Shown here one piece after another: positions 4,402 to 26,910 of a stretch of DNA of 64,000 nt. Source of the DNA: Isurus oxyrinchus (taxonomy: Eukaryota); assembly GCA_026770705.1 (NCBI GenBank), contig JANJGN010000039.1, positions 8,742,001-8,806,000 on the forward strand, read 5' to 3'. The notes beneath the pieces were generated by a model that was not told the DNA's origin, did not search any database, and worked only from the letters and a program-made list of their open reading frames with translations. The translations under genes were made by a program, and so were the position numbers. How positions within the stretch are numbered: the stretch's first letter is position 1; each line of letters begins with the position of its first letter.

Positions 4402-4472
4402 TTTTCCTTAGTGTATTGGGGACTATCCCAGCTTCCACACGGGAGACCGGGGTTCAGTTCAGCGACGGAGAG
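4402..4472 (+). pseudogene. tRNA-Asp-derived pseudogene, heavily decayed
   Basis: ttttccttagtgtattggggactatcccagcttccacacgggagaccggggttcagttcagcgacggagag aligns to vertebrate tRNA-Asp(GTC). There is a 1-nt deletion in the anticodon loop and the stems are broken. Confidence 0.8.
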
Positions 4473-6324
4473 ACAAGTCCTTCCTCGCGTTGTGCGAGGT
4501 GCAAAGCAAGCTCACCCTATTGATTCGCAAACCGGTTTACATTTCCACGTGGTGATCGACCGAAAGGGCATCTGCACAGCCTTTCGGACAGAAGGCAGAT
4601 TTGAAAAGATGGACCATGAGCAAAATTTCTGGACAGTTCTGGTTCTCAATATCACCTGTGATCAACGGCCATTTCCGCCATCATTCTGTCTCCTTCCACC
4701 TTGTGAGCGTCGAAACGTGTACCCAAAATAACGCATCTCCCTGTTTATCCAGGGCACTTTAATAAAAAAAAAAGACTTTAAGAGATGGTGGCAGCACAAG
4801 TTTTAAAAGATTTTGCAATAATCACTGATCCGGACATACTTCGCATCCCGCTCACGATTGATAATCCACGGCTAACTGAGGACTACACCTTCTAAGCAGG
4901 TACGGCGCCTGTACCAGATGCTGCTTAGGCCTGAAATAGGCTTGCCATGGCCAGAGTGTCAACCGAAATGTACACAATGCGTTTCGATGAGCTCCCATGT
5001 AGCGAACTCAGTAAAGAAATAGCATTTGAAGGCACGCAAATGTCCATTAAATGCAATAAATAGGAAAAATAATATCTTATTTCAATAACACGATCCTGTC
5101 CTTTCACGTCATTGCTGATTTTGTAAATTACTTATGGTATGTGAACTCTTCCCTTCAGCACATAAAAAATCAAGCCGAAGGAAACAGCAACCTTGCATGG
5201 AGTCTCCTCAAAAGGCCAAGATAACCATTCGTAAAAAAAATTTTGCCAAGTATCCCTTGGTTCTGTCAGCAACGCATCACATCTTTGCCGCCGGGTAACT
5301 CACTCTATTGCAAGTAAAGTTCTGACTGCCAAAATGTTCTAGGATTTCGAACGCCGCTCAATATCCTCGTCAGAATAAATTGTATTAAAACGTGGGATAC
5401 GCTATTCGAATTCGCCTTTGCCTGCAGCCCGAGTCATGCATGGTCTGTGCCTCGCAAGTAAGACTTTCCCTCTGAAGTGTCACATTGCCCGCTGTTTGAG
5501 ACCACGGGTCATTTAGCACAAGATGAAAAATTGCTGGAAAATATCAGAGGGCCTGACAGCTTCTGTCGAGATGTTGACCTTTCAACAGCATTGGAGTCTT
5601 CATCAGAACGGTCATTAGTCAACTTTGTTCAGAGGTATTTGCTTATGTTGCCGTAAGCACACTATCCTCACCGCCGTTATGCACTTCTCGTTAGGCAGTT
5701 AAAATTCAGCCAGAAATGAATACAGACCTGCGTATAATCTATCCAATAGCCCCATAAAATTCTGAATCAAATATGCTTCCCCCATGCAGCCTCTGCTTCC
5801 CTGATCTCTTTGTCCCTGTTAGCCCTACCTTCTGCATCTGCATGGTTCCTGCCGCTGCACTGAGGCTTTCTCTGCGAAGAGGGCGACCAGAGATTTTTAG
5901 AATTCAAAATGTGCCAGCTGGTGATTTAGAAACGTTGTCCAACATGTTTTCTTTTGTTGCTGAGTGGAAATGATTAAATAACCTTTTATCTTCCCCTTTT
6001 ACCGTGATGTTTTGAGTCCCACCCTCTGACTGTTGTCTGGATAATGGAAATGGAGCGCGGAATGTGGCTGCAGTAGGTTAGTGACTGAAACAGAATTCCC
6101 TTCGAGACTTTGCGTGTGACAAAATGAGGGAAATAGCCGAAGAAGAAACGCCTTTCCTTCTGGATGGCGGGAAAAACTGACACGATTGGATGAATTTCGA
6201 GAGGGATGATGCATCCGGTGTATTTCGTTGGAATTGTGCAGGCAAACTGGGTAACTGTTGCCTCAAAATGGAAATTCCAAGGCAACTCAGAATCTCATTG
6301 GCTCTGGGGACATTCGCAGGCCTG

Positions 6325-6397
6325 TCCTCGGTAGTATAGTGGTCAGTATTACCCGCCTGTCACAAGGGAGACGGTGGTTTAATTCCCCGACGGGGAG
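6325..6397 (+). pseudogene. tRNA-Asp(GTC) pseudogene
   Basis: tcctcggtagtatagtggtcagtattacccgcctgtcacaagggagacggtggtttaattccccgacggggag. GTC anticodon retained; B-box mutated (GGTTTAA); anticodon and T stems mismatched. Confidence 0.9.
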
Positions 6398-7254
6398 GCA
6401 CGTCTTTGTTCGAAACGTGTGCGGTGGAAGCCGTGCTCACTATTTTGCATTAAGTTTTTGGATTTCTTTTTTGGAAGTTACCATTCCTCCTGAAATTCAC
6501 TCAGCGCTGCAGAAGGTTTGTTCAAAGGACTAACACAACTGTCCTTCAAAACCTTCTATCCTCTTGTATCCTTTGGTTCCGTGAAATCATTGCGTCCTGC
6601 ATGTCCTCCCTTCTGCAATTAAAGATTTCAAAATGATTTGCGACATTTAATCGGCCGACCGAGCGTCTTCCTTAACTCCTGTGTTTAAAACTGGCCAAGA
6701 ACACTCAAGTTTTCTCTCTATTATATTTGCATTTCGAAGCTGCCAAACATGCCACGTGTCGCTGCACTGAGCGGTTCTCTCTGAAGAGGCTGCCCAGCAA
6801 CATTAAACAGCCACAGAATGTGCCAGCTGATGATTTGAAACTGTTCCTTCCGGACCTGTTTGCTTTTGTTGCTCATTGGGAATGAATAAACAATGTCTCT
6901 TACTGGTTTCAGGTGATGATTTGACTCCGACCCCATGACTGTGGTTGTGCTGAAAATGGAAATGAAGACCATAGCGGATCCGTAGGGTGCAGGGGACTGA
7001 AGTAGATGGACGGCTTCAAACCTTGCAAGTGATTAAATGACACAAATTGTCAGTGATGAAGCACATTTTCTTCTGAATAAAGGACAAAACTGAAACGATG
7101 GATTGATGACCTGGAGGGAAGATGCGCGCCGCCTATTTTGCTGGAATGTAAATATCTGGTTTGTGCAGGAAAACGGAGAAATTTGTGTAACAAAACTGTG
7201 GCTAACGGCAGATTGAAATCTCACTAGCCGACTGCGCGAACACAGGCCGGGCTC

Positions 7255-7310
7255 TCCTGGTTAGCATTGCGGTTAGTATCCTCACATGTCACGCGGCAGA
7301 AAACGGGGAG
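7255..7310 (+). pseudogene. tRNA-Asp(GTC) pseudogene lacking the T-arm
   Basis: tcctggttagcattgcggttagtatcctcacatgtcacgcggcagaaaacggggag; ~16 nt of the T-arm/B-box are deleted. Confidence 0.8.
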
Positions 7311-9120
7311 ACAAGCCCTTGTTCCAAACGTTAAACATTGAAAGCGGCCATGCTGCCTTACCTTCGCAAATTGCTTTCCAGTCCCGCGTGGGGGTTCATC
7401 ATAATGTTCCAGCGCTCAGCCTGGCGGACAGGGCGCAGATTTGCGTGAAGCAAACATGAGCAACCTTGCTGGACAGAGCAGGAGATCACAATCTCCCCTG
7501 GGAATCGGCCGTTTGCCCCATTATCGCCCATGGCTTGTCGGATTAAATAACCATCGCCGCGTTTCCCCGAGACAATTAATTTCTTGTGTTTCTATGACAT
7601 TTTCCTGAAACGACATGTTTTGGAAACAACAACGGCACAACTCATATTAGATTTTGCAAAGAAACACAAAGCCGACTTTCTTCACAACCTGACACTAATG
7701 AGGATCGTACACTGACTGACGACAATATGTTCTAGACAGCGTCACAGTTCCAGATCAGCTGCATCGTATCCGGTTAAAGCCTTAATTAAGGCCGCGGTGG
7801 CTAGTGTGTGATGTACAATTAACGCAATGAGTGTTAGTGAGCTATGAACCGCATAACCCAGAAAGTAAAGCACATTGAGGCACGCAAATTACAATTATGT
7901 GCAATAAATATGAAATATGCAAAAATTTTTCAATTACCGTCTCATCCGTTCGCTGTTCTCTCTCCTTTCTCTGCATTGATTAACGTGGAACTTCCTCAGG
8001 AAATGCAAACACTTCCTTTGAGTAAATTGCAATTCAGTAAGAAGTCAACAAAAAACACGTTGCATACAGTCTCTTCAAGAGGCCAAATTAATTTTGCGTA
8101 AAAAAAAAGTTCTCTCGCCTGGTGACTCGTCTTTTTGTAACTGAACTCTTCTTTCTGATAACGTCCCTGTATTTTGAACTCATATCTGTACCCTCTTCAG
8201 AAAATGCTTTGCTTCTATGGGAGCATATGTATTCGGTTCATCTTTGCATGTAACCGCAGTCATGCATGGTTGTTGCCGCATCACTGAAAATATCTCTGTC
8301 TAGTGTGATGCCCAGAAATCTAAAATATCCACAGGGTGGATCAACCGGTGACTTCCCAATTTGCTTCGGGCGTCTTTGCTTATGTTGTTCTGAATTCAGG
8401 CGATACTTATAGGATTTAGACTTCTCTATTGGCAGTTAACATTCAGCCTGAATTGAAAACAGCCTTGCAAACAGTTTGTCAAATGGACTGCCACAATTCT
8501 GCCTCGAAACATTCCTTCCTCATGCAGCCCCTGGTTCCCTGAAATCATTAACCCGCTGATTGCGCACCCATCTGCAAGAAAATTTCACCTAAATGTTCGT
8601 GATTTTTAACCCCTCGATCGAGCGCCTTCTTTCATTTCTGTGCTGAAAGCTAACCTTGACCAATCCTTTATTTCTCATGTCCCGCTGTCCGACATAGCTC
8701 CTGCCGCTGCACTCAGCATTTCCCTCCGAAGGGAGCCAGGAAGGATTTAAAATCCAGAGTGCGATGGACGGTGATTTGTAAATCTGGGTTCGGACGAGTT
8801 TTCTTATGTTGCTGAGTGGAAATGAATAAACCATGTTTGTTTCCTGTTTCATATGACGTGTTAAAACCGGCCCCCTGATGGGATTTGGCCTCGAAATGGA
8901 AATGCAGCGCGTACCGGGTGTGCAGATGTCGGGTGTCTGAAGTAGACGGGCGGCTTCAATGTTTCCAATGACTAGATTGTGGAAATTCTAGCTAACGATG
9001 CATTTTGGCTTTGATGATAAAGGGCAAAAACGGCTGAGCAATGATCTAGAGAAATGATACTTCACGTGTGCTTGATTGGAATGTACATTTCTGAGTAGTG
9101 CAGGAAAATTGGGACATTTC

Positions 9121-9146
9121 CAGGTTTCAGTTCCCTGTCAGGGACA
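9121..9146 (+). pseudogene. Possible 3' remnant (T-arm) of a further tRNA-Asp cassette
   Basis: caggtttcagttccctgtcagggac lies between upstream (8700-9110) and downstream (gatttgcaaatccgttttc) flanks homologous to those of the other cassettes. Confidence 0.45.
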
Positions 9147-9289
9147 GAAATATCTCTTCACGCCGTGAAGCAAGGACTCATATTTCTGATTTGCAAATCC
9201 GTTTTCCTTGTCACGCTGAGATCATTGTAAAGGTCATTCACTCAGCAGAATTGCAATAAGTTGTCTAGTTGATAAGAATAGGCCTTTCA

Positions 9290-12200
9290 GAATTGGCGCA
9301 GGGGCGACGGTTGGTGAGTGTCAGATGAATAACTATGTTATAAATTTCTGTCCTAAACATGTCACATACAATTTAATGTATGCCTGCTTTGCTGGGTCAT
9401 GTGGAATGTGCATCTGCCAGGCGTCGGAGATAGCGCAGGCACAAAGTGTTCTGGATGACTACATCTGCAGGAAAAGTATCCAGCTGCAGAAACTTGAGCT
9501 GCGGGTTGCGGAACTCCAGTGGCGACCACAGTTGCTGTGGTGCATCCAGGAGGCTGAGGATTACGTGGAAAGCAGGTTTAGAATGGAGGTCACACCGCAA
9601 CGAAGTAGTCGACAGTTAATAATGGATTGAATGGCCGCCAGAGTAACTAAGGGAAACAGGAATGCGGTGCTGGAATTCGCTGAGTTGATCTAGCTCTCTA
9701 AATGTGTTGTCATGTCCCTTTTCGGATGTTGGTAGGCGAGGCCGGTCCTCAGAGACATGCAGGAAGAGTCAAATTCTTTGGAAGACTGGTGGCTCAGCTA
9801 TACAGAATGAGAGGAGGATGAGCAAATGTGCTACCCAAGTAGGGGATTCCATAGCTAGGGGAGCAGACAGGATTTTCTGCCGCTGTAGATGTCACTACAG
9901 GATGTGATGTTGCCTGTCTGGTGCCAGGGCCATGGATGTCACAGAGCTGCTGCAGTACCTTTCTTTTTCTGCAGGAGGGTGAACACCCACATGTGGTGGG
10001 CCAATTTGGGACCATGGGGAGGAGAAATGATGAGGTCGTGAAGTCATTTTTTAGGGAAATAGAAAGGGAATTACAAAGCAGGAACACAAGAGCAACAACC
10101 TCACTATTACTCCCAGAAACACTTGCTAGTGATCATAAGAACGGGACTTTTAAACCGTTCAACCCGAAGCACAACAAATGGATTCGGAGGAATGGCATTT
10201 TTATTTCTTAGTTATTGGGACCAGTTATGGGGCAGCTGGAGCCTGTAATTACGCGCGGGTTACAGATCAACAGAGCCAGGAGACGAATGTCCTCGTGGGA
10301 AGGTTTGCTGTTGCTGTTGGGAGATTTAAATACATCGGCATGGGGAGGGAAACCGAAAGGGATTTCTAAGCTGGAGTGGAGAAAAAAACCTGGCATTGGG
10401 AATTAGAGAAATATTCACTGAAAAGAAGGAGATATCAGACAGCAGCATTAAAATAAGTCGAACACTTGGGGAGCGTTATAGAACTAAAAGCCGCAAAAGA
10501 ACGTTGTTAGATGAAGTCAGGATGAGGGAAATTTTTTTTAAAGAGCCTAAATCAGGCTTAACATGTATGTAAACCAATGCACGTATTATGATTATAAACA
10601 TTGGTGAACTAATGCACAGGTTGACAAATGGGAATATGGGATTATTGCTACAACAGAAGCCAAGTTCAAAGATAGGCACTCCTGGGCATTAAATATTCCA
10701 GGGTGAAAAATGTCGAGTAGAGACAGGAGGGATGGCTAATTATAACAATATTAGGCAGGAACTCAGGAATTTAGACTGGAGGCGGATGTTTGAGGGTAAA
10801 TCAGCAACCTACGTGTGGGGGACTTTCAAACGTCAGTTGATAAGAATTCAGGGCCGACATGTTCCTGCTAGGATGAGGGATATATATGGCAAATTTCGGG
10901 AAGATTCGATAACGATGGAAATTGTGAGATTAGTCAAAAAGAAAGGAAAAGCATTCGTAGGGGCTAGAGGATGGGAATAGATGAAGGCCATGGAGAATAT
11001 GAAGAAAGTCGGATGAAACTTAAGCGAGGAGTCAGGAAAGGTAAAATGGGTAATTAAATGTAATTGGCCACTAGGAATAAGGAAAATCCCAAGGCATTTT
11101 ATACATATGAAAAAAGCAAGGGGATAGCGTGCGAAAGGGTAGGCAAACTCAGGGACAGAGGTCGGAAACTGTTCTTGGAGCCAGAAGAAGTAGGTGAGGT
11201 ACTAAATGAGTTCTCACCAATGAGAAGGACTTAGCCGTTGATTTGTCTAGTGAAGAGTCTTTACATGGCCTGGATAATGCTGAGATGCAACAAGAGTAAA
11301 TGTTAGGCGTCTTGAAGAATATTAAGGTGGATACGTCCCCAGGGCCAGATCAGATCTGCCCCAGAGTACTGAGGGAGGCAAGGGAGGGGATTGCTGGGTC
11401 TTGACAGAAATCATTGCATCATCACTGGATACTGGAGAGGTCCCACAGAACTGGAGAATGGCCAATGTTGTTCCATTGTTTAAGAAGAGTAGCAGGGATA
11501 ATCCAGGAAATAACAGACCGGTGAGCCTTATGCCAGTAGCAGGGAAATTATTGGAGAACCTTCATTGCAACAGGATTTACTGCCACTTCGAGGCAAATGG
11601 GCGTATTACTGAGAGGCAGCATGGTTTTGTGAAGGGCTGGTCGTGTCTCAACAACTTGATGGAGCTTTTCGAGGAGGTAACAAAGATGATCGACGATGAA
11701 ATTGCAGTGGATGTTAGCTAAATGGATTTCAGTAAGGCCTTTGACAAGGTCCCTCATGGCAGACTGGTACAGAAGGTAAAGTCGCATGGGATCAGATGAG
11801 AGCTAACAATATGGATACAAATTTGGCTTGGTCATAGAAGACAGAGTGTAGCAGTGGAAGGGTGCTTTTCTGAATGGAGAGCTCTGACTAGTGGTCATCC
11901 ACAGGAAACAGTGCTGGGACCTTTGCTCTTTTGAGTATATGTAAATGATTTGGAAGAACATGTAACTGATCTAATAAGTAAGTTTGCAGACCACACTAAG
12001 TTTGGAGGAGTTGCACATTGTGAAGAGGATTGTGAAAGATTACAACGGGATAGAGATCAGTTGGAGAATTGGGCGGCGAAAGGTAGATTGAGTTTAATCC
12101 GGAAAAATTCGAGTTAATGCATTTTGGAAGGCCTAATACATGTAGGAATTAAAGTAAGTGGCTGAACTCTTAAGTGCATCGACGGGCCGAGGGATCTGGG

Positions 12201-12908
12201 TGAACAGGTCCACAGGTCACTGAAGGTGGCAATGCCAGTGGATAAGGTAGTCAGGCAGGCATACGGCATGTTTGCTTTTATCGGCAGGTGTATTGGCTAT
12301 AAAAGCTGGGAAGTCAGGCTGCAGTTGTATAGAACCTTGGTTAGGCCACACTTGGATATTGAGTGCCATTCTGGTCTTCAAATTACCAGATGGATATGGA
12401 GGCATTGGAAAGTGTGCAGAGGGGGTTTACCAGGTTGCGGTCTGGTCTGGAGCTTTTTAGCTATGAGAAGAGTTTGGAGAAACTTGTTCTGTTATGGCAA
12501 GAGCGACAGAGACTGAGGGGCGACAAAATAAAAGTTTACAAAATTAAGAGTGGCATGGACAGAGCAGACAGTCCAAAGCTTTTTCCTGGGATGCAGGTTT
12601 CAATTACTAGGGGACATACATTTAAGGTCAGAGAAGAAAATTTCAGAGGTGAATTGCGGGGCAAGTTTTTTGATGCAGGGTGCAGTGAGTGTCTGGAATT
12701 CACTGCCAGAGAACATTGTGGAAGTTGGTACGATAGTGGTGTTTAAGTGGCAGCTTGGAAATACATGAATATGATGGGAATATAGGGATACGGACCCCGG
12801 AAAGGAAAAAAGTATTTAGTTTGACAGGCAGCATTTTCAGCGCAGGCTTGGAGGCCCGAAGGGCCTCTTCCTGTGCTGTACTTTTCTCGGTTCTTTGTTC
12901 TTTGTTCT
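9290..12908 (+). mobile_element. Near full-length inactive CR1 LINE (ORF1 + ORF2 with an internal endonuclease deletion)
   Basis: ORF1: CGM...DDYICRKSIQLQKLELRVAELQ (zinc finger/zipper) and VGDSIARGADR (GDSL/SGNH esterase). ORF2: GEVPQNWRMANVVPLFKK, RQHGFVKG, DFSKAFDKVPH, SKFADHTK, RLQLYRTLVRPHL. (TTCTTTG)n tail ends at 12908. Many stops and frameshifts. Confidence 0.93.
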
Positions 12909-13674
12909 AATTGATTGTGGAGACTGTCACTTAATTTACAGAATCAGGGGTCATTCAGATTCGTACATGATTTTGGACACAGTCACTCAGGTGACAGAGC
13001 CAGTCGCCTGTCACTATATTAAATGATTAGGAAGTCTGTCACCAAGGGTGCAGAGACGCTGTCAGTCATTATAGGAATGGATTTGGAATACTGTCACTCT
13101 GTTTCCAGAGACTGGGTTCATTCACGATAGCAATTGATTGGGGGTACTGTCATTCAAGTTAAAGAGGCAGAGCTCATTCACGAAAGCAATTGATTGAGGA
13201 GGCAGTCACTCAGGTTTCAGAACCAGGGACAGCCAACATGGGGACTGCTTGGGCATAATGTCACTCAGGCTACAGAATCGTGGCCACTCATGAAAAGCAA
13301 CCTATTGGTGAGACTGTCATTCAGGTTACAGAGCCGAGTCCAGACACGACTGAAATTGATTGGGGTGAAAGTCACTCAGGTGAAAGAGGAGGGAAACAGT
13401 CATGCATAGAAATTGATTGGGGGTCTGTCAGCTTACTGTACCACGGGCCTGTCAGTAGTTCATTAGTACAGATAACTGGGGAGATTGTCACTCAACATAC
13501 AGAGCCGGCGGCCTGTCAGCATAGTAATTGATTGAGGAGCCTGTCACTCAAGTTACAGAGCCGGGGCTCGATCATTATTGTAATTTAATGGGGAATATGT
13601 CATTCAGGTTACAGAGTCAGGGGCCTGTAAATATAGCAATTGATTGAGGATAATGCAACTCAAACTAAAAAGCC
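12909..13674 (-). repeat. 55/56-bp satellite, truncated inverted copy of the end of the 40590-48180 array
   Basis: Recurrent ctgtcactcaggttacagagcc / aattgattgggg units; mirrors 47425-48180. Confidence 0.9.
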
Positions 13675-13936
13675 AGATTTTGGGTACTCAGATGTTTCCT
13701 ATGTTGAAAACTCGGATTGTTGCCAACGTAGGAAATGAAGGATTATTTTCAATAGAATGAAAAACTGGATTTGTGTAGAAGGCCAGCAGAAATGTGCCGA
13801 ATGACCTGCCCCCGCAGCTATTCCCTATGCCCTTGTATAAAAGCGGAGTGTGGTGGTGGTGCCGGTGGTGCAGGAGTCCACAAAATGATTCAATCTGCAT
13901 TGTCAAAGTGTGAAAGCTCTAGAATAGCCGCCCCCT

Positions 13937-14085
13937 TCATGCCAGCAGCTTCCTGAATTCCTGTTCTAGGCGCATCCAGATATTGTCCAGGTCTGTTCCC
14001 TCCCCCCTTGCACCCATTCAGACCGGTGACCGTACATCCGCTGCCAAGGGTTTATTCCTGCACTGACCTCGCCATCACCATAAGT
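13937..14085 (-). pseudogene. Candidate last coding exon of a small secreted-protein (pseudo)gene
   Basis: Acceptor tgctttattctccctttgtttaaacgatttctag|ACTTATGG. Phase-0 frame: TYGDGEV...TISGCA* (TAG 13968-13966). Phase-1 frame: NLW*WRGQCRNKPLAADVRSPV*MGARGEGTDLDNIWMRLEQEFRKLLA* (TGA 13939-13937). Confidence 0.45.
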
Positions 14086-14299
14086 CTAGAAATCGTTTAA
14101 ACAAAGGGAGAATAAAGCAACCACACCAAGATGAGGCTGTGATCAATGCAAATAATTTTATTGCTGATTATAGATCATTATTGCACTAAGAAAAAGACAG
14201 GTTCGGAAATGTGGTGGGGCCTGTTGTGCACACCCAATTACAAGGCTCGTGCTTATTCTGGGATGCCGATTGCAGTTGGGTGTTGGGGAGCACACTCAC

Positions 14300-14418
14300 T
14301 GGAGATTCATCCCAGACCCGGATAGCAGCAATCAGAACCGTTATCACAGAAATCTTCTTCAAGCAAATAACCCGGTGGGCCATTCCATCGGCATCCTCAC
14401 ATTTACTCGTGGAGGAAT
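14300..14418 (-). pseudogene. Candidate middle exon (119 nt), Cys-rich
   Basis: Acceptor ctctttgtttaaaattacag|ATTCC and consensus donor CCA|GTGAGT. Reads DSSTSKCEDADGMAHRVICL...; a shifted frame gives EEDFCDNGSDCCYPGLG*IS. Confidence 0.55.
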
Positions 14419-14599
14419 CTGTAATTTTAAACAAAGAGTTTAAAATTGGACAATCAGCCTGAGGGGCAGAGAGGAGAGTGAAGAGCAGTGGGAGATTGGT
14501 TTTCCTTTTTATGTTCACCGTGGCGATGTACGAAATGCAGCAGCCAGTGTTTACACAGCAATACATGGAAACATCAAGAGAACTGATAGCTCAGGTTGT

Positions 14600-14830
14600 T
14601 TTTCAGGATCGGACATTGGGTCATGTCAGTACTTGCAGGGGGGAGACGTGACCAAAAGCTCGATATAGAAAATATTTTAGTCACATCATAAAGGGGGAGA
14701 GAGGGTCAGAGAGATTTAGGGATGGAATTCCAGGGTTCAGGTTCCAGGAAGCTGAAGGCCGAAGAAAGGAAGGGTTGAAAGCAGAGATGTGTAAGAGAGA
14801 CGGGAACCACTGCAGTGCAGAGATGACTGA
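14600..14830 (-). mobile_element. L2 LINE 3' fragment
   Basis: Reverse complement gives gccttcagcttcctggaacctgaaccctggaattccatccctaaatctctc...gagcttttggtcac, resembling the shark-type L2 AFS...P..WNSLP end and 3' UTR. Confidence 0.7.
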
Positions 14831-16010
14831 GGTTGTCGGGACCTGGAATAGGTTACGGTGATTGAGGGCTGTAGGAACCTGCGGACTTGGCGAGGGTTCC
14901 AGTTGATGGGAGAAGTTATGAAGACAGAGAGGATTGTAGAAAATTGCAGGTGTTATGGAGATGTAGAGGATTGTAGAAGATGGGAAATGTTGCGTAGATG
15001 GAGATTGCTACTCGAACTGGTGGAATTCACATAATTTGGCAGAGTTGTAGGGCCTGGAGAAGTTCAGGAAGACAGAGACTTTTATATAAACTGGCAATGT
15101 TTACAGGGATAGGGAGGGGGTGACAGGGAGTGGATGAGGCTGCAGAGAAAGGGACAGGTTTGTAGAGGCCGGATTTTCTTTTCACAGAAATAGGCAGAGT
15201 TGTGAAGAATGCGGGTTGCTACGGAGATATGGAAGTCTAGGGGCCACAGGAGGCACGGAGAATGTCATGGCTGTTGGTGTTGAGGGAGGTAATGGCGACT
15301 GTGAGGCTTGTAGGACTGGAGTTGTTCACACAGTTTGCGAGAGTTGGGGGATTGAAGCTGCTTTGTAACAGTTGGTAATGTTAATGACATGGATGCTTTT
15401 GTTGGGTGGAGAAGGTGATAAAGATGGGGGTGGTGGCAGGGCTGGGGTAGGTTACGGACATTCAAGGAATCGGCAGTGCTGGAGTCTTTTAAAGAGACAG
15501 GCAAGGTTGCGAGGGCTGTGGGAATTTAAAGAGTTAAAGAGGGTTGATGAGATTGTGGAGATTGCAGACAAAATAGTTGTCCAATGGGTTGGATGTGCTG
15601 ATATAGATAGGCATTGCAGCATGTTCTAGTGGACTTTACAGAGGTAGAGAGGTTTGCAATGGCTGTTAATAGCTTACAGAGGTAGTGAGGGTTGTCAATG
15701 CTGGAGGAGGTTATGGAGATAGGGAATGTTGACGGGGCTGGAGGAGGTTATGGAGATAGGGAGGGTTCTCACGGCTGGAGGAGTTTACGTGTATCGAGAA
15801 GTTTTGACCGCTGCGAGAACTCATAGGCACACAGAGCCTTGTAGGGGCTGGTGGTATTTCCTTGATGGGCAGTTATGAAGCGGCTGCATGATGTTATGGA
15901 GAGAAAGGCTATTGTAGGGGCTGGAGATTTTCATAGGGACAGGAAAGGTTTTGGAGGAAGGAAGAGGTTGCAGAGGTCTGCACTCTCGAGGGATGTAGAG
16001 GGATTTGGCT
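14830..16010. repeat. Degenerate 37-bp purine-rich tandem repeat derived from L2 ORF2
   Basis: ctggagga(g) at 15701, 15738 and 15775 (period 37). Approximate consensus ctggaggaggttacggagatagggagggttgtagggg. Confidence 0.8.
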
Positions 16011-16222
16011 GCAAGAATGGGAATGACAATAAGGCTGGTTTAATTCCCGCTCCAACATTCTCCCTTTGTTTTCCTTGAGCACTGATTGGAAGGGAAAGGG
16101 ACTGAAAGAGCTCCTCAAACCTCTCCTCTCACCCTGCACCCTAACAACCACACAGAGAATCAAAGAGTTAGAAATGGACATTGTTCCAAATAGCTGCTGG
16201 GGACAGGGAGGTCGCTATTCAC

Positions 16223-16328
16223 CCACGACCTGGAAATCCTGAGCAATCAGCAGGTGACCAAGAAGCAGGATCAGAGTCTTCATCATCTTGAACAGAACCC
16301 TTCCGCGTCAGGATCAGTGAACTGGACA
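16223..16328 (-). pseudogene. Candidate signal-peptide (leader) exon
   Basis: Acceptor ctctctgttgttccacacacaatctctag|. ATG at 16286 with A at -3. Encodes MMKTLILLLGHLLIAQDFQVV (basic n-region, hydrophobic h-region). Phase-1 donor G|GTGAAT. Confidence 0.55.
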
Positions 16329-16714
16329 CTAGAGATTGTGTGTGGAACAACAGAGAGCGCTTGTGAGAATTTAACATTCCAAACAAGAGGAGAGGCTCCT
16401 GCTGAGGCAAATAGCTTCTGTCAAACTGAGACATGATTGGCAGTTTGGCTCAGGGTTCAAGACAATGGGTGTGGATAACCCCGGGTTTTATCAGGAGTGA
16501 CCTCAACTCTTGTTAATCCAGAAGAAATCTCATCTTTTGAAACACGGTTTCCAGTGGGGTGACAACAGAATCTACCGCAGTTAAATATCTGGGCAATAAA
16601 AAATAAGCAGGGCCGAAACTGTACCTGAACTTTGGTCTGCATTTGAAGAGGAGCAAATTCGGGCAAGCGAGCGAGACGAGTGTGGACGGGGACCCCATAA
16701 TGAACCAAGTCAGA

Positions 16715-17230
16715 GTCCCAACGCTGAACCTAGAACAATCCTGGACACAATCCGCACACTGAAGACAATCTACACCTGGAACCCTGAAACTCGGCTGACC
16801 GAATCCTCAGACTGAAAACCGTCCAGAGTCTGAACACAGAATAACTTTTGACACATATACCACGTTGAATACAGTCTCCACTCTGAACACCTCGATCATA
16901 CTCCGCATCCTGAACACAGTCCCCACACGGAATCTATAACAACCCAGGATACAATCCCCACAAAAACAGAAAGACACACTGGACACACTGGCCACGCTGA
17001 GGAGGGTCCACACTCTGAACACAGAATCACCTCTGAGACAATCCCCACACTGAATACATTCCCCACAGTGAACACAGTCTACACACTGATCACAATTCCA
17101 CTCTGATCACAGGCACTATTCTGAATCAGATTCAAAATTTGAACACAGAGCGACGCTGGAACAAATATTCGCAGTGAACACAGTCCCCATTCTGAATAAT
17201 ATCGCCTGTCTGAAAAAAGTGTCCATGCTC
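16715..17230. repeat. 18-bp satellite block 1 (ctgaacacagaccccaca-like)
   Basis: ctgaacacag recurs every ~18 bp. Confidence 0.85.
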
Positions 17231-17399
17231 AACATTACAGCACACGTCTCAAAGTCCACATTCTGTCCAATTATCACAATCAATGAGGGATGGAGAGTGT
17301 GGTGTTCCCAGGCAGATGATTGTTAGACGAGATCTCCATATGAAACATATTATTGTGCGCGTTTTGTTTCTAATTTTACACAGGCCATGATTTAACAAT

Positions 17400-18270
17400 G
17401 TTTAGATTATTAAAAAGAATTTCAAAGGTAGTGAACAATGAGGAAGGTAATATCATAGTATCTGTCGGTGCAAACTCGATGGGCTGAAGGGCCTCTCCTG
17501 CAATGTGCGATTCTGTGATTCTGTGACTTTACGAGGGTATAAGCAGACTATTGAAATGTGCAGGTGTGTAGAGACCCATTTTTCATAGAACAATGAGTAG
17601 TGATTATATAAAACTAATGGTAAAATCCAAAGTTGTTGCAGGAGCAGAGAAATCTGGAAGTGTCGGACGCAAATCACTGAAGGTGGCAGCACCACTGGAG
17701 AAGGTATTAGAAAGAAGTGGATCCATTGCCTTTACAAATAGAAGACTAGAACACAAAAAGCAAGGAAACTGTAACTGAACTGTTTATAACACACCGGTTA
17801 GACCCAAGATGTTGTTCATTGTCCAATTCTGAATCCACTCTTTAGGAAGGGTGTCAAGGCCATGGAGAGCATGCGGAGTTTTTTTTTTAAATTTGATTCA
17901 AGGAATGAGGCTCTCCAACTCATGTGAAGAGAATGGAGAAGGTGGGTTGTTCTCCATTGAACAGAGGAGACTAATTACATTTTGATTAGAGGCGTTTAAC
18001 ATCAGGAAATATTTTGATAGATTCAATCAGGAGAAACTCTTTCCTGGGACAGGATGGTCAGGAAAAATAAACACACAAGCTTAACCTGCTTGGCAGAAGA
18101 AAATCGTGGGATGCAAGGAAACATTTCATGACAAAGCCAGTTGTGCTGATCTGCTTAAATGCTTCAAATTAAGCAGTGAAATGGAGCAAGAGAATGGGAA
18201 TTGTGTCTAATTAAATGCAATTACAAAATATCTACCAGAAGCACGATGGGTTGAAAGGCTTTTTTTTTAT
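17400..18270 (+). mobile_element. Old CR1 3' remnant containing a ~70-bp younger CR1 tail insertion (17460-17527)
   Basis: tttaggaagggtgtcaaggccatggagagc (RKDV.ALE), 3' UTR gcacgatgggttgaaaggc, and nested gatgggctgaagggcct...gattctgtgattctgtga. Confidence 0.7.
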
Positions 18271-18769
18271 TTCATATGCCTGACGCTGTAACTAAAAAGG
18301 ATCAATCAAATGTGGTTTGAAACATAAACTTTACATACATAGTAAAACGTCACCGTATCCACAGAATATATTTGCATAAAGAGTGAGGGCGCTCAGGTGC
18401 AATGGAGGATCCTGTTTCCCTGAAATGCTAACCATCAGGATAGTGTGTGGAAACAAACTGACAGACAGGATCTTGGTTCACTGCGGTTAAAGTCACTGAA
18501 TGTTCCACAGTTGGACGCGGCAATCTCGGTCAAAATGGTTGTGAGCAGATAACATAGTGAAATATGCCGTGTCAGTAATGAAGGATGCCGGGGCAGAGAA
18601 ACACGGAGATACACAGTGACGGGGTTGTGGGAAATATTGAAAACATTCTCTAGAATTTTATTCCAACCATCCCTGTAATTTCGAGACTTTCATAACCTGC
18701 ATCCTGCTGAATGCCTGATAAAGCCCAGCAATGTCCAGATCGATAAACAAGCAAAGAAACAACGGGAAG

Positions 18770-21090
18770 AAACAAAACACAGGAAACACTCTGAACAAAA
18801 CAGCAACCGGAACACAAACCACATTCTAAGCGAAGACCAAACTCTGAACACATATCCCCACATGAAAAGAGAACCCGATCAAAACACAGATCCTCGTCTA
18901 CACTAATAGCATAGTTTGAACAGAAACCGCACTTTAAACAAATACCACACTCTGAACACATACCACAGCCTGAAAGCAGACAAGACCCTAAACACATCCT
19001 TTATTCTAATCAAATACCAGAGACTGAACATAGTCCCCACTCTGAAAACAAACACCAGTGTAAACTCACACCCAAGACTGACCAAATACCACAATCAGGA
19101 GACATCCCAGATTCGGAACGCAGGAACTAATCTGGGCACTGTCCTCTCATCTAATCACGGGCCCCTGTCTAAACACAAACCCGTTCTCTGAGCATATCCG
19201 ACTCCCTAATCACACATTTTACACTCAGCATAGCCCCGTCTCTAAACACAGATACCACTCTGAGCATGTTCCCCACTCTGAACAAACAATCCACACTGAA
19301 CAGGGATACCCATCTGAACACAGGGCCCACACTGAGGACGATCCCTGCTCTGAACATACACTCCACTCTGAAAAGAGACAGCTCCCTGAACGCAGAGTCT
19401 CATTGGAGCACATGCGCCACTCTGAACACGAACCCATACATAAAATGGACGCCTCTCTGAAAACAGGCAGCGCACTGAATTGTTTTGTTAGTGAATGTGT
19501 GCAGAGTGTTGTCTGTATTCAGCTTTACATTTTCAGAATGGGGCCTCTTTTTTGAATGGGAACTTTATAAGATGCAGTTATGCGTTCATTGGCTGTTTAG
19601 TGTCCAAGGTGCTGTTTGTGTTCAGGATAGGGATATTTGGCAAATTAGACGCCATGAACACAGACTAACAAAAACAGTGACCCTGCTCTGAAAGCGGACA
19701 ATGCACTAATCATACAGCTCTCTCTGAATACTGATCTCACTATGACCAAAAAACGACTCTGATCACAGTTCCGGTAATGATAAAATCTCTTCACGCTGAA
19801 AGAAAAAGCCACACTGAACACTATTCAGATAATGTTCATAGTTCCTTATCTTTAGAAAAAGGAATCACAGCAAGCGGTCCCATTCTGAACATATAGAAAT
19901 GAAAACATTTGCAAATATCACTTTCAGTAATGAGACCTGTTTGAAAAGACACATCAGAACAAAATCCACTCTAAGCACAGAACTCACTCTGTACTCAGAT
20001 CTCACACTGAACACAGTCTACACTTCGGACACGGGTCCCAATGTGAACACAGGGCTCTCTGTGAACACAAACCTCTTTCTAAATGCTCACTTCAATCTGA
20101 ATACAGAATCCACATTGACCCCAGGATCCAAACTGAACCCAGGCCCCACACTAAACACAGAATCCATTGTTAACACTGATCACACTGAGAACAGAAGCCT
20201 CTCTCTGAAACCACATGCCTGTCTAAACACAGACCCCAAGCTTTACACAGAATCCACACTGAACATAGGCCTGGCACGGAACACAGATCCCAATGAGACC
20301 ACAGACCCCTCACAGAAAACACATTCCACTGTGAACACAGTCCTCTTTCTAAACACACACACCTCACTTACAACAAACCCCACACTGAGCATAATATCCT
20401 CACTGATCAAGGTCCAAACAATGTAGTCAGGCCCCCAGTGAACACAGCTTCCAGTGTGAACAGAGACCTATCTCGGAACACTCACGGCTCTCTGTACACA
20501 TACCCGATTCTGAGCACAGAATACAAACTGAACACAGGCCGCACGATAAACATAGTGTCCTTCTTGATCCCAGAGCCCACACTCAACAATGAACTCTGAG
20601 CCCAGAATGAACAGAGAGGCAGTACTGAACACAGAATAAAACTGAACACAAACCCTACTGAATACACCGATTCATGTATGACCAGAGACCACAGCCTGAA
20701 AACACAATCTTCTCCATATGGAGACCACAGTCTGAGGGGAGAATGCACACGAATCCCTGACCCCAGAATCAACTCAAAGCCATCGCTGAACAGAGCGCCC
20801 ACCATGAAGACATTTCCCCCAAAGCGCGCAGTCAGAACAGAACGCACGCTGTACACTGTTACTCACTGCTCAAAAGGCACACATTGCACATAGAGTTCAC
20901 GCTGGACACAAAGGCCACACTGAACACAAAAGCCACACTGAACCCAGTCCATACTCTGAAAACGGATCCCACTTTGCTCACAGGCCTCACTCTAAATACA
21001 ATCCACAAACGTGAACACCGTCCGAACATGGACAAACTGTAACATGAACACAGTGCCCATTCTGAACAAAATCCCCAGACTGAACAAAGA
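18770..21090. repeat. 18-bp satellite block 2
   Basis: Degenerate ctgaacacag units; source of the LNT-rich and CSE/VFR-rich pseudo-ORFs. Confidence 0.9.
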
Positions 21091-21299
21091 GAGTCCAAGC
21101 TGATTAATGCTCCTCACGTCTCACAGTCCAGATTCTGAACATTTGTCACTTTCTATTGGGGGTGTATCGAGCGATGTTCACCTACATTTCATTTTGAGAC
21201 CACATCTCTAAATCATATTTGTTACTGACATGGATTATTACTATTATTGTTTTTTATACAAGCCTTGACATAAGAATTGTAAGATTATTAAAAAAACTA

Positions 21300-22090
21300 T
21301 GAAATGAAGTTAACAATGAGGACGATAGTCACATACATTATGAGGAGATAAACGGACTGGTGAAAAGGGCAAGTGTGAAGAGAGAGATTTTCCACTAAGT
21401 ATGAGCAGAGGCAATATAATACTTATGGAAAAAATACAAATTAATCACAGGAGCAGAGAGATCTGGGGGTTTCGGACACAAATTATTCAATCTGGCAGCA
21501 GAAGTGGAGGAAGAATTGGAAAGCACATGGAATCGTTGCCTTTATAAATAGAGGATATGAATACAAAAACAAGGAAACTGTAACTGAACTCTTTATAACA
21601 CACTGGTTAGGACCCAGATGAGTTCTGTGACCCAATCAGAATCCAAAATTTACGAAGGGTGTCAAGGCCTTGGAGAGGGTGCCAAGTTTATTTTCTGATT
21701 TGATTCCAGGAATGAGGGTATTTAACTCATGTGGAGAGACTGGAGAAGGTGGTTTGTTCACCTTTGAACAGGGAGGTTAAGTAAAATTAGATTATAGGCG
21801 TTCAACTGCAGGGTGTTGTTTGATTGAGTCAATGAGGAGAAGCTTTTTCCTGAGATGGGATGGTCAGGCAGAAAATAGACACAGACTGAAGCTCTTTGGC
21901 AAAATAACAAGAACAAAATTCAAGGAAGCATTTAATGACAGAGCCAGTTATGCTCATCATGGTAACTGCTTCTATTTAAGACTTTAACAGGGATATTAAG
22001 CAAGAGAAGGGGAAGTGGGACTAATAAAATAGCTTTAAAAATGATCTAGCAGAAACACGATGGGATGAATATCTGCTGCTTTTTTTTATA
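21300..22090 (+). mobile_element. Old CR1 3' remnant (duplicate of 17400-18270)
   Basis: aaggaaactgtaactgaact...acactggttag and gaagggtgtcaaggccttggagagggtgc, shared with 17760-17880. Confidence 0.7.
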
Positions 22091-22569
22091 TTTTATGTGC
22101 CTGACGCCTTAACCGAAAAGTTTTCATCAGTTATGCGGTTAAATCTAAACTTTACATGCATAGCAAACAAGGTGTCTTACCAACAGAATATATTTACATA
22201 AATACTGTGATCGCTCAGGGGCAATGGAGGAACCTATTTCCCTGAGACACTAACCATCAGGATATTGTGTGGAAACAAACTGAGAGGCGGGAACTTGGTT
22301 CACTGTGTGTAAAGTCGCTCAATATTCCCCACTGGGACAGAAAATTTTCGGTGTAAATGGCTGTGAGCAGATAACACCGTGAAATATTCCGTGTCAGTAA
22401 TGACGGATGACGGGGCAGAGAAGCTCGGAGAGACAGAGTGAGGGGATTTGGGAAACATTTTGAAACATTCTCTGGAACATTTATCCCAAACATCTGCTGA
22501 ATTGCTAGACACTCATAATCTGCACCCTACTGAATGATTGGAAATGCAAGGCAAGGCATGGATCGACAA

Positions 22570-24260
22570 ACAAGGACAGAAACTGACTACAGAAAGATAC
22601 AGAATACAGATCCGAGCCTGAAAAAGGACCGCAGTTTAAACACAAATATCAAATTAAGCAAAGACAACACTCTGAACCCATACACCACCCTGAAAACAGA
22701 GACCAATCTAAACACAGATCCTCCTCTAAATTAACAGCACCGTTTGAACAGAAACCACAGCTTTAAAAAGACCACACTCTGAGCCCATATAAAACCCTAA
22801 AAACAACCCAATCTAAACACAGATCCAAGTCTTTACTAACATTACAGTTTGAACACAAAGCCCACTTTAAACAAAGACCATAATCTGAACCGATATCACT
22901 CCCTGAAAAAAACCCTCGACATAAACACAGATTCTAGCCGCAACAAATATCACAAACTGAACACAGAATTAACTCTGAAAGCACACCTCAGTATAAACAC
23001 CCATCCGTGAGCGACCAAACACCACATTCTGAAGGCAGCCCCTATTCTGAATGCAGAAACCGCTCTGATCACAGGGCCTCATCTAAACAATGGCCCCACT
23101 CTGAACACAAACCACTCTTTGAGTAAATTCGTCTCTCTGATAACACAGGTCACATTAAACATCGACCACTCTCCAAACACAGAACTCACTCTGATCATGA
23201 TCGCTGCTCTGAACACACACTGAATACTCTGAACCTAGGCACCTCTAATCACAGAGCCGAGTCTGAACACGATCCCTGCTCTGAACATACGCCCAACATT
23301 GAACAGAGACATTTCTCCAAGTGCAGACCCTACTCTGAACACGACCACTGGTCTGAACAAAAACCCCACATTGAACATATATGTCTCCCTGAACACAGAG
23401 CACTATGAACACCGCCCCGTGTTGTAACACAGATGCGTCTCTGAATACTGACCACACTCTAGATGTAGTATTTATGAATGTGTGCATAGTGGTGTCTATC
23501 TGTAGCGTTCTAAAGTTTAGGATGGGGTCTTTGTTTTGAATGGGATCGTTAAAGATGCGGGTTAGTGTTCATTGACTGGTTAATGTCCAATGTGTCTTCT
23601 GTGTTCAAATTGCAGGCTTGTTCAGAAATTAGGCGCCTTTAACATGGACCCACACATAACATTGACTCCTCTCTGAACGCAGACTGCTCACTGAACACAG
23701 ACCCCTCTCTGACTGCAGATCTCACTATGAACACAAAAACTACTCTGAGGTCAGTGCGCTGTGGGGGATAAGTCCTCACACTGAATTCAGAAAGCACGTT
23801 GGAGACAGTTGAGACAATGAATACAGATCCAAACCTTTATTTAAAGGCACAGCAAAGGCCCTGTTGTAAAAGGAGAACCCTGAATGCAGACAACTCTCTG
23901 AAAACATTGATAAACACGACATTCAGCATTGAGCCCTGTTAGATAAAAAATATCACAACAAGCCCCCTCTGAGCACAGATTTCTCTCTGTAATCTGCCCT
24001 CACACTGATCTCGGTCGACACTATGAACACTGGCCCCATGATGAACACTGGCCTCTCTGTGAATACACACCCTCCCTAAATGCTTACCTAAATGCTAAAC
24101 AGAGAATCCATTCCGAACACACACTCCACAATGAAAACAGACCTCACTCTATTCACATAACCGAATGTGAACACAGGTCTCTCTGAATAAATACAGACAC
24201 ACTCCCCTCTCCAAATGCAAAGTCTAATCTGAAGAAAGAATGTGTTCCAGAAACAGAAAC
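22570..24260. repeat. 18-bp satellite block 3
   Basis: Degenerate ctgaacacag/ctaaacacag units, collinear with block 2. Confidence 0.85.
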
Positions 24261-24759
24261 TTCAAATCAGGGGCAATAGTGACATCTGTTTCCCTGAAAT
24301 CCCAAATGCCGCAATATTGTGTGGAAACAAACTGAGAGACAGGAGCTTGTTTCGCTGAGGGTAAAGCTGCTGGACATTCCATACTGGAAATGAATAATCT
24401 CGGAGATCATGGGTATGTGGCGATCACATCCTGAAATGTTTAGTTTCAGCACTGTTGGGTGCCCTTAAGAGTTCTCTGCATTGAGGCATTGAAGGTACAG
24501 AATGAGGGCTTTTGGAATAATTCTTAAACATCTGCCTTATTCCCAATCATTTCTTTAATCCTTACAGGTTTATGTGAACCACATGCAGCTGAAAAGACTG
24601 TTAATAGACGACATGGTGTCGATGGCTAACACGGCCTGAAATTGAAAGCCGAGTCTGAACACATTTCGGTCCAAAGATTCGGGAGATTCAATACAACATC
24701 AATGGCACAGTTCAAAATGGGGCACAGAGGCAGAGGCATCCGCTACAGCGCTTTACATT

Positions 24760-26910
24760 CATCACTCTGCACAGACTCTCCAGTCTGAACAGAGGGCCTA
24801 CAATGCTAATAGACACCACACTGATCAGTGACCCCGTGCACAACACCGACATTACACTAAACACGGACTCCACACTGAACACAGACCCTACGCAGAACAG
24901 AGATCCCAATTTAAATATAGCCCCCGCACTGTACATATAGCACGGGGCACAGATTCCACACTGAGCACAGGCCCCACACTGTACACAGAACCCACACTGA
25001 CAAAGGCACAAATTGAACACAGAGCCCACACTGAACAACGAACCCTCACGGATCACAGAGCACACAATGAACATAGAGCCCACCCTGAACATGGACACAC
25101 ACTGAAAACATATCCCACACTGAACACAGAATATGCACTGAACATAGTGCCCACTCTGAACACAGAGCCCGCGTTAAACAGAGATCTCATTTTGAACACA
25201 CATACCACTCTGAGAATAATCCTCGTAGCGAGAAAATTGTTTATGCTGACTACAGATCATACACTGAAGGCACCCCAGATATTTAACTGACCCTAACATT
25301 AAAAAGAGCCCATTCTGAACAAAGGCCCGATTGTAATCATAGAAGCCAGTCTCAAAGCAGACAGCAGCTTGAACACACCACAAAGTACACATTCAACGTT
25401 GAGACCAGATTGAACACACACACAATTAGAAAGAAACTTGATGAAGACAGATCTCATTCTGTACTGAGAACACAGTCTGAAGACTGATACCACTCGGGAA
25501 CAGGCAGCACTCAGAACACTGAATCCTATCTAAACACAGAGTCCACGCCGATCACAGATTGCACTCAGAACACAGTCTCCACGCCGAACACAGTCTCAAC
25601 TCCGAATACAATCCACTCGGAACACAGACTCCACTCCGAACACAGACTCCACACTGAACACAGACTCCACTCGAAACACAGACTCCACTCCAAACACACA
25701 CTCCATTCCGAACACACTCCACTCTGAACACAGACTCCATGCCGAACACAGTCTCAACTCCGAATACAATCCACTCGGAACACAGACTCCACTCCGAACA
25801 CAGACTCCACACTGGGCACAGACTCCACTCCGAACACAGTCTCAACTCCGAATACAATCCACTCGGAACACAGACTCCACTCCGAACACAGACTCCACAC
25901 TGGACACAGACTCCACTCCGAACACAGATCCACACTGAACACAGACTCCACTCCGAACACAGTCTCAACTCCGAATACAATCCACTCTGAACACAGTATC
26001 CACTCCGATCACAGACTCCACTCCGAACACAGAATCCACTCCTAACACAATCCACTCAGAACACAGACTCCACTCCAAACACAGACTCCACTCCAAACAC
26101 AGACGCCACTCCGAACACAATCCACTAGGAACAGAGACTCCACTCCGAACAGAGACCCCTCTCTGAAGACAGGTCCCACTGTAAACACAGGTCTCTCTGA
26201 ACACGTACACAATCTTAAAGCAGAATCTCCATTGAACACAGACCCCACAATGAACACACGGGAGTACAATGAACACACCCAAAACTCTAAAAACAGATCC
26301 CACTGTTAACACAGAACCCACTCTGAACACACACCCCTCTCAAAACACTGTCCCCAATATAAACACAGAATCCACAGTGAACACAGGGCATAGACTGAAC
26401 AGAGTACTCACAGTGAAGGCAGATCCCGCACTGAACAAAGGCCACACTCTGAACAAGGTCAAACTGTGATCTCAGTTTTCCCTCTGTACTCTGACACTAC
26501 ATCTTTCTGACCTCTCTTTAAATACAGAGGTCAATTTGAAAAATGACAGAAAATTGAGCAGAGCCCCAGGCTCAACACAAACTCCACTGTGGCCAGCGAT
26601 CCAAGAATGAATAATATCCCTAAACTGAACACAGTTCTCACAGTGAACACTGACTTTTTTCAACACACACGCATTTCTAAACACAGAAACTGCTTTGAAC
26701 AAAGACCCCCTACCGAACATAGAGGCGAAAATCCCACTGTGATGAAAGACCACACTTAGCATACTGACTTCACGTGGAACATTGAGACCACAGTAAACAG
26801 AGTTTCCAATCTGAGCACAGTGCCCACGCTGAATATTGTCTAAACTGAACACTGCCCCGCTTTAACCACTGATCCCACTTTGAGCACAGCTCCCACTCTG
26901 AAGACAGTCT
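24760..26910. repeat. 18-bp satellite block 4 with homogeneous core (25530-26150)
   Basis: Near-perfect ccgaacacagactccact units in the core. Confidence 0.93.

What the first reader, a model, noticed from the sequence alone, without database searches (positions are those of the whole stretch)
13937..16328. Hidden three-exon gene or pseudogene for a small secreted cysteine-rich peptide
Seen: three minus-strand segments of non-repeat sequence bounded by canonical splice sites with compatible phases (coding 16286-16223, phase 1; 14418-14300; 14085 onward). Spliced as-is they give an uninterrupted 100-aa ORF: MMKTLILLLGHLLIAQDFQVV-DSSTSKCEDADGMAHRVICLKKISVITVLIAAIRVWDESP-TYGDGEVSAGINPWQRMYGHRSEWVQGGREQTWTISGCA*. 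A single 1-nt shift near VICL gives C-LEEDF-C-DNGSD-CC-YPGLG-*-ISNLW*WRGQ-C-RNKPL...DLDNIWMRLEQEFRKLLA*, which stays in frame across the second intron. Knowledge: a leader exon with a phase-1 intron is typical of secreted proteins, and C-x5-C-x5-CC-x5-(C)-xn-C is knottin/ICK-like spacing, loosely also prokineticin-like. Inference: a decayed copy of a lineage-specific secreted knottin-like peptide family that I cannot name, with intact paralogues possibly elsewhere.
Basis: partly seen in the sequence, partly recalled or inferred. Interest (0 to 1): 0.75.

Follow-up and report, generated by a model that had tools for sequence, protein, structure and literature searches.

The report
Probable broken secreted-peptide gene, unnamed family
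A signal-peptide-like exon here matches a probably spliced transcript fragment of a related gene, so this is likely a decayed copy of an unnamed small secreted-protein gene of a shark-like fish; the proposed cysteine-knot fold is untested.

Summary
Exon 1 has outside support: one contig from a run with the same species label (RNA is a guess) matches 16222-16330 at 86%, without gaps, and leaves the window at the predicted donor; its listed differences give a more hydrophobic leader. Exons 2 and 3 rest on sequence features alone. Which frame is ancestral stays open. For the Cys frame: C-x5-CC and an amphipathic end helix share one spliced frame. Against it: it needs a frame change and holds three TGA, as many as a random frame, while the as-is frame is open for 100 codons. 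No relative was found in Pfam, PDB, 1.84 billion proteins or three word searches. The knottin spacing is not in the DNA as it stands, and a chance look-alike lies at 32282-32216. Trefoil- and LDLa-like motifs fit about as loosely. Best reading: a decayed copy of an unnamed secreted cysteine-rich peptide gene (0.45); an intact 100-aa gene is the main rival (0.25). Interest is modest until the relative's transcript is read.

The parts
16222..16330 (-). Stretch matched by a related contig: 44 nt of 5' untranslated sequence plus exon 1, ending on the first intron base
   Evidence: run X1 record 8: 249 nt, depth 3.3, record letters 139-247 laid, 15 other letters, no gaps
16223..16286 (-). Coding exon 1: 21-codon signal-peptide-like leader, phase-1 donor
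   Evidence: relative's listed differences read codon by codon; hydropathy
14419..16222 (-). Intron 1 (1804 nt, GT-AG), pyrimidine-rich, with short repeat-like pieces near 14526-14755 and 15700-15767
14300..14418 (-). Candidate exon 2 (119 nt). Open in the as-is frame (Cys codons at 14401 and 14365); second frame holds C-x4-D-CC (Cys at 14348, 14330, 14327) and a TGA at 14309
   Evidence: sequence features only
14086..14299 (-). Candidate intron 2 (214 nt, GTGAGT donor); its acceptor shares an 11-mer with acceptor 1 (copies at 14436 and 14106)
13966..14085 (-). Candidate exon 3 in the as-is frame: 39 codons to TAG
13937..14085 (-). Candidate exon 3 in the Cys frame: TGA at 14077 and 14020, Cys at 14062, predicted amphipathic helix in the last 18-19 codons, TGA at 13939

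Best explanation
This is likely a decayed, single-copy member of an unnamed family of small secreted cysteine-rich proteins: exon 1 matches a related contig up to its splice donor and is predicted to encode a signal peptide, while exons 2 and 3 would have encoded a disulfide-bonded module and a C-terminal amphipathic helix, now interrupted by one frame change and three TGA stops. Shown: the coordinates, both translations, the related contig and its break at the donor. Inferred: that the contig is spliced RNA; that exons 2 and 3 are the true partners of exon 1; that the Cys frame is ancestral. An intact relative would be a secreted peptide of about 90 residues after leader cleavage, most likely acting outside the cell as a ligand or defence peptide; this copy would make no such product. 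The fold is not assigned.
For:: contig of 249 nt, 86% identical over 109 nt, no gaps, ends at 16222; a genomic paralogue would keep the invariant T of GT and align at least one base further; a break within 2 of about 250 positions is roughly 0.008 by chance (crude); of 6 listed coding differences 5 change the residue and 1 is silent; the window has Gly and His where the relative has Ala and Leu, and the best 8-residue hydropathy is 2.49 here against 3.69, which fits decay of this copy. C-x5-CC appears in any frame of 0.2% of 20,000 exon-2 shuffles, and C-x4-D-CC once in the window. The last 18 residues of the same spliced frame have a hydrophobic moment in the top 0.5% of 52,699 stop-free 18-mers and fold as a helix at pLDDT 86-91. 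In this reading exon 2 would be a class 1-1 exon, the class reported for shuffled cysteine-rich TFF modules (PMC7350206, passage seen). Both acceptors carry the same 11-mer, of 3 copies in the window; the two acceptor regions are matched by 11 of 1000 shuffles.
Against: Three stops in 68 codons is the mode for shuffled sequence (2-3). Neutral decay gives three or more with probability only 0.03-0.04 at 7% divergence and 0.15-0.19 at 14%. The shifted frame staying open for 59 codons has probability 0.06. The as-is exon 3 also folds with some confidence in the best of five models (helix plus hairpin, mean pLDDT 76.9; the others 63-50), so the helix prediction does not discriminate. Amino-acid composition favours neither frame. 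Both motifs were picked after the fact, and a six-Cys look-alike with incompatible splice phase lies at 32282-32216. The outside support is one contig at depth 3.3 in one of four runs whose RNA nature is a guess, and it bears on exon 1 only.
Confidence: 0.45

Rival explanations
1. An intact three-exon gene for the 100-aa as-is protein (leader plus about 80 residues, three Cys); the Cys motif and the helix in the other frame are coincidence.
For: Open for 100 codons across two junctions; 78 codons of exons 2-3 stay open in only 1.6% of shuffles; the other frame has the random number of stops; ATG and all four splice dinucleotides are intact; best model of exon 3 has a helix and hairpin at pLDDT 84-87.
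Against: Leader is less hydrophobic than the relative's. An odd Cys count and a second hydrophobic run are unusual for a small secreted protein (own knowledge). No fold match for the exon-3 model (best E 1.6, best Z 2.5).
Confidence: 0.25
2. Only exon 1 is real (a stranded or partly duplicated leader exon, or one whose true partners lie elsewhere or are eroded); exons 2 and 3 are pseudo-exons.
For: The related contig supports exon 1 only and does not bridge to 14418. Acceptor 14418 is not outstanding in a pyrimidine-rich intron. No protein relative for exons 2-3 in either frame tested.
Against: Consensus GTGAGT donor at 14300, a shared 11-mer before both acceptors, and two protein-like features in one spliced frame. 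A fast-evolving mature region below 80% identity would also fail to be laid.
Confidence: 0.2
3. The as-is frame is ancestral at both ends and only a short middle stretch of exon 2 (about 15 codons, the Cys motif) was read in the second frame, as after two compensating frame changes; the module would be LDLa-like (C-D-x3-D-C followed by an acidic D-E pair, motif recalled).
For: It explains at once the open as-is frame, the Cys motif, and the random stop count downstream.
Against: Needs two indels within about 45 nt; two of the six LDLa cysteines have no counterpart; leaves the amphipathic helix unexplained; no Pfam match.
Confidence: 0.1

Closest known systems
Inhibitor cystine knot (knottin) peptides, e.g. 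scorpion ICK consensus CX6CX4DCCX2-4K/RCX3GX4-6CK/R (PMC3694633, passages seen)
   Same: Leader exon, three exons, a C-x4-D-CC core, and a final Cys followed by Arg in the Cys frame
   Different: Only three of six Cys lie in one frame before a stop; loop after CC is 5 residues to a stop codon, without K/R-C; an extra upstream Cys; a long helical tail; in the scorpion genes the mature peptide is not split by an intron after CC; no Pfam or PDB match
Trefoil (TFF/P-type) single-domain peptides (PMC7350206, passages seen)
   Same: Secreted, six-Cys module in one class 1-1 exon would fit exon 2 under the Cys reading; R-x-x-C and CC-aromatic motifs (recalled) are present
   Different: Spacing between the second and third Cys is 5, not about 9, and between the third and the CC pair 5, not 4 (spacings recalled); G-x-P-G-I-T/S loop absent; no Pfam trefoil match
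Prokineticin / AVIT family (features recalled)
   Same: C-x5-C-x4/5-CC start and an I-S...L-W...R-G...C stretch after it
   Different: No AVIT start, at most six to eight Cys positions instead of ten, no Pfam or PDB match
Shark beta-defensin-like genes noted earlier in this scan (e1-8030859, e1-8030756; unchecked notes)
   Same: Small secreted Cys-rich peptides hidden in short exons in shark-type DNA
   Different: CC pair is internal here, not terminal; three exons; no sibling copy within this 64-kb window

Membership tests
ICK / knottin | Six Cys in C-C-CC-C-C order in one open frame | tested here: not met
   strict spacing 0 times in six frames; three Cys in one frame before TGA 14309
ICK / knottin | C-x4-D-CC core as in the scorpion consensus | tested here: met
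   (one occurrence in the window), consensus from PMC3694633
ICK / knottin | CC-x2-4-K/R-C-x3-G-x4-6-C spacing after the core | tested here: not met
   five residues then a stop; next Cys codon 17 codons after the pair, in exon 3
ICK / knottin | Knotted I-IV, II-V, III-VI disulfides | not testable with these tools
   No intact member or alignment available to fold
ICK / knottin | Match to a knottin profile or solved structure | tested here: inconclusive
   No match for the pieces; the pieces are short and were searched separately
Trefoil (TFF / P-type) | Six Cys in a single class 1-1 exon | tested here: inconclusive
   Exon 2 has five Cys codons over two frames plus a stop; class 1-1 only under the Cys reading; feature from PMC7350206
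Trefoil (TFF / P-type) | C-x9-C-x4-CC spacing with G-x-P-G-I loop (recalled) | tested here: not met
   x5 and x5, loop absent
Prokineticin / AVIT | N-terminal AVIT motif and ten Cys (recalled) | tested here: not met
Beta-defensin | Six Cys ending in a terminal CC pair (recalled) | tested here: not met
   CC is internal; no Pfam match
LDL-receptor class A module | C-D-x3-D-C plus D-x-S-D-E and six Cys (recalled) | tested here: not met
   first motif present, acidic cluster only partly and in the other frame, two Cys missing
Multi-selenocysteine protein | In-frame TGA with a SECIS element in the 3' untranslated region | tested here: not met
   Rfam at gathering score and at E up to 10 over 12900-16800 lists no SECIS; simple pattern absent from the first 650 nt after the stop; a frame change would still be needed
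Secreted-protein gene with leader exon | Basic N-region, hydrophobic core, phase-1 intron after the leader | tested here: met
   SignalP itself was not available
Transposable element | Match to a repeat consensus or many copies | tested here: inconclusive
   No second copy of any exon in the window and no Pfam transposon domain; no eukaryotic repeat library or genome was available

The most novel reading that the evidence does not exclude
Cartilaginous fishes carry an undescribed, expressed family of secreted peptides with a conserved leader, a fast-evolving cystine-knot-like module and a C-terminal amphipathic helix; this locus is a dead copy and the X1 contig comes from a live one. It would be a vertebrate knottin family outside agouti/AgRP (the only one I recall).
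Probability: 0.15. Interest if true: 0.65.

Novelty: new member of a known kind. Interest (0 to 1): 0.35.

Why it matters
The locus points to a small secreted-protein family that the libraries searched here do not hold, with a conserved leader and apparently a fast-changing mature part, the pattern of defence and signalling peptides (own knowledge). If the live relative proves to be a knottin it would widen the very short list of vertebrate cystine-knot mini-proteins. As it stands the evidence names no fold and no function, and this copy is probably dead, so the value is that of a lead.

Tried and rejected
No whole genome is held, so paralogues could be sought only in the window: none by tblastn or short-word blastn or by a 24-nt leader motif with 3 mismatches. 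Run search: no RNA holder listed; 5 runs came by species label only, sharing 0.00 of the words. In the 4 of 5 runs laid, exons 2 and 3 had no cover and no joint linked the exons; contigs show presence only, so this is not weighed. The unlaid 138 letters of record 8 were among 57 loose ends not shown. Pfam: no relevant family for 15 and 9 pieces of the locus; among 146 other frames only an RVT_1 fragment at 11326-11718 is credible. Word searches: P0002, longer proteins, no candidate; P0004, 7 candidates, none at E 10 or less; leader plus exon 2 alignment, no candidate. In a simulation that profile scored 124 of 200 Cys-frame and 194 of 200 as-is relatives at 55% identity at E 10 or less, but the three-word filter was not simulated. 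phmmer of P0004 (exon 2 as-is, exon 3 Cys frame) on 1.84 billion proteins: 0 at E 0.001; exon 1, exon 2 Cys frame and exon 3 as-is were not searched there, and exon 3 as-is was in no word search. PDB by sequence: only unrelated weak hits. Fold searches with the as-is exon-3 model: 0 at E 0.001, best Z 2.5. ESM Atlas gave no result. Metagenome scan with the leader motif: 3 loci, each matching 28 nt only, rejected as chance. Exon 3 as a duplicate of exon 2: rejected, 362 of 1000 shuffles score as well. Selenoprotein reading: rejected. Earlier scan notes by place and by four sequences: nothing. Paper searches (64 timed out) listed no description of such a family; I saw listings and abstract starts only, plus passages of PMC3694633 and PMC7350206. 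Subscription journals and supplements were not seen.

Full report
Observation. On the minus strand, exon 1 (16286-16223, 64 nt) ends in phase 1 before GTGAAT, exon 2 (14418-14300, 119 nt) lies between TTACAG and GTGAGT, and exon 3 starts at 14085 after TTCTAG. Joined as they stand they give 100 codons to TAG at 13968. A second spliced frame holds C-x4-D-CC (Cys codons 14348, 14330, 14327), TGA at 14309, 14077 and 14020, a Cys at 14062 and a final TGA at 13939. The full C-x5-C-x5-CC spacing is not present in any frame of the window: its first Cys (14365) belongs to the as-is frame.

Setting. The window is mostly repeats: an inverted duplication (1-9098 and 12695-13674 against 60072-47425, 92-96% identical), arrays of 18-nt and 55-56-nt units, LINE fragments (RVT_1 at 11326-11718) and a tRNA-Asp-like copy. 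The candidate lies between two arrays, just outside the duplicated part, and has no second copy in the window. That the host is a cartilaginous fish is my inference from recalled likeness of the LINE fragments; no call names it, and no genome was held.

Exon 1 is real with fair confidence. Of 118 ATG-to-phase-1-donor candidates in the window, 3 pass a simple leader filter and 2 of them are this exon. A looser scan finds other leader-like stretches, for example at 37569, so the shape alone proves little. The stronger evidence is external. In one of four runs laid (X1; same species label as the best holder; RNA is the tool's guess), a 249-nt contig at depth 3.3 lies on 16222-16330 with 15 other letters in 109 and no gaps, and its remaining 138 letters lie nowhere on 13600-16700 at 80%. 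The match ends on the G of the GT donor. A genomic paralogue would keep the T as well, so a spliced transcript whose next exon starts with G is the simplest reading; a break at this place has a rough chance of 2 in 250. Ten of the 15 differences were listed; 6 are coding, 5 change the residue and 1 is silent. The relative has Ala and Leu where the window has Gly and His, and its best 8-residue hydropathy is 3.69 against 2.49 (listed letters only). So a relative with a better leader appears to be expressed. Whether it is a paralogue or the orthologue of a related species cannot be told. It is a single low-depth contig, and the sister run X2 of the same sample does not show it.

Exons 2 and 3 rest on sequence features. 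For them: a consensus GTGAGT donor, the only one among the loose alternatives open through exon 2, and an 11-mer that starts 18 and 21 nt before the two exon starts and occurs 3 times in the window; 11 of 1000 shuffles match the likeness of the two acceptor regions. Against: on a crude pyrimidine score the acceptors rank 14th and 8th of the top 14 listed out of 108 AG sites, and 41 of 321 loose three-exon chains from exon 1 reach 100 aa. The related contig does not bridge to 14418; a fast-evolving mature exon below 80% identity would behave so, and so would an unrelated exon.

Which frame is ancestral. For the Cys frame: C-x5-CC arises in any frame of 0.2% of 20,000 exon-2 shuffles; the last 18 residues of the same spliced frame are in the top 0.5% of 52,699 stop-free 18-mers for hydrophobic moment and fold as a helix at pLDDT 86-91; exon 2 would then be a class 1-1 exon, the class given for shuffled cysteine-rich TFF modules (PMC7350206, passage); and the leader looks decayed. 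For the as-is frame: three stops in 68 codons is the random expectation (mode 2-3 for 59 codons); neutral decay yields three or more stops with probability 0.03-0.04 at 7% and 0.15-0.19 at 14% divergence; a shifted frame stays open for 59 codons in 6% of shuffles; and the as-is exon 3 also gives a confident helix and hairpin in the best of five models, although no fold matches it. Composition favours neither. Both Cys-frame features were chosen after the fact, and the window supplies a control: 32282-32216 reads C-x2-C-x5-C-x4-CC-x6-C in a 95-codon open frame, with nearby acceptors in phase 2 and no Pfam match. On balance I put the decayed Cys-frame gene at 0.45, the intact as-is gene at 0.25, pseudo-exons at 0.2 and a pair of compensating frame changes at 0.1.

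Likely working. An intact member would enter the secretory route by its leader, lose about 20 residues, close a small disulfide module encoded mainly by exon 2, and carry a C-terminal amphipathic helix that could bind a membrane or a partner or act as a propeptide. A conserved leader with a diverged mature part is typical of defence and signalling peptide families (own knowledge). All of this is inference; only the leader and its splice site have outside support. This copy, read as it stands, would give the 100-aa as-is product, if anything.

Comparison with what is known. No relative was found in Pfam, PDB sequences (19, 20, 47), three word searches of 5.8 billion proteins (13, 17, 46) or phmmer of one 159-aa read-through on 1.84 billion representatives (26). 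The pieces were short and could not be searched across junctions, and exon 3 in the as-is frame went only to Pfam and the fold searches, so these blanks limit close relatives only. Against the scorpion ICK consensus CX6CX4DCCX2-4K/RCX3GX4-6CK/R (PMC3694633, passage) the x4-D-CC core is met and the later loops are not. Trefoil, prokineticin, LDLa and beta-defensin patterns (spacings recalled) each fail at least one defining feature. A selenoprotein reading, prompted by all three stops being TGA, finds no SECIS. The locus may work like a small disulfide-rich secreted peptide gene, but it cannot be filed in any family. Eight completed paper searches on this question listed no such family in cartilaginous fishes; I saw listings and abstract starts, and passages of two papers; subscription papers and supplements were not seen.

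Verdict. A real leader exon with an apparently expressed relative; probable but unproven partner exons; probable pseudogene; fold unknown. New member of a known kind, interest 0.35. The boldest reading left open, a vertebrate knottin-like family with a helical tail, has probability about 0.15 and would deserve 0.65. Reading the rest of the X1 contig would settle most of this.

Noticed in passing
window 32282-32216, minus strand (open frame 32031-32315): Six-Cys stretch C-x2-C-x5-C-x4-CC-x6-C with a 27-nt internal duplication; nearby AG sites are phase 2; DNA likeness to exon 2 is reached by 12 of 1000 shuffles, protein likeness by 515 of 2000 Cys-fixed shuffles. Used as a chance control.
   Followed up: partly
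window 37584-37515, minus strand: Leader-like hydrophobic stretch after several ATG, followed by a phase-1 GTAAGT donor; no partner exon sought.
   Followed up: no
window 1-9098 and 12695-13674 against 60072-47425: Large inverted duplication at 92-96% identity; LINE-like sequence at about 9100-12700 lies in the left arm only.
   Followed up: partly
window 53491-53564 (minus) and about 6330-6400: tRNA-Asp-like copy with an ATC anticodon; a similar degenerate stretch seen by eye near 6330-6400, inside a family of diverged 0.5-1.1-kb repeats.
   Followed up: no
window 16800-26400, 40600-48200 and 12900-13670: Long diverged arrays of 18-nt and 55-56-nt units flank the candidate gene; the 18-nt arrays give spurious Cys-rich frames.
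   Followed up: no
window 63197-63275, plus strand: The only other stretch that passed the strict leader filter; weak donor GTGATC.
   Followed up: no
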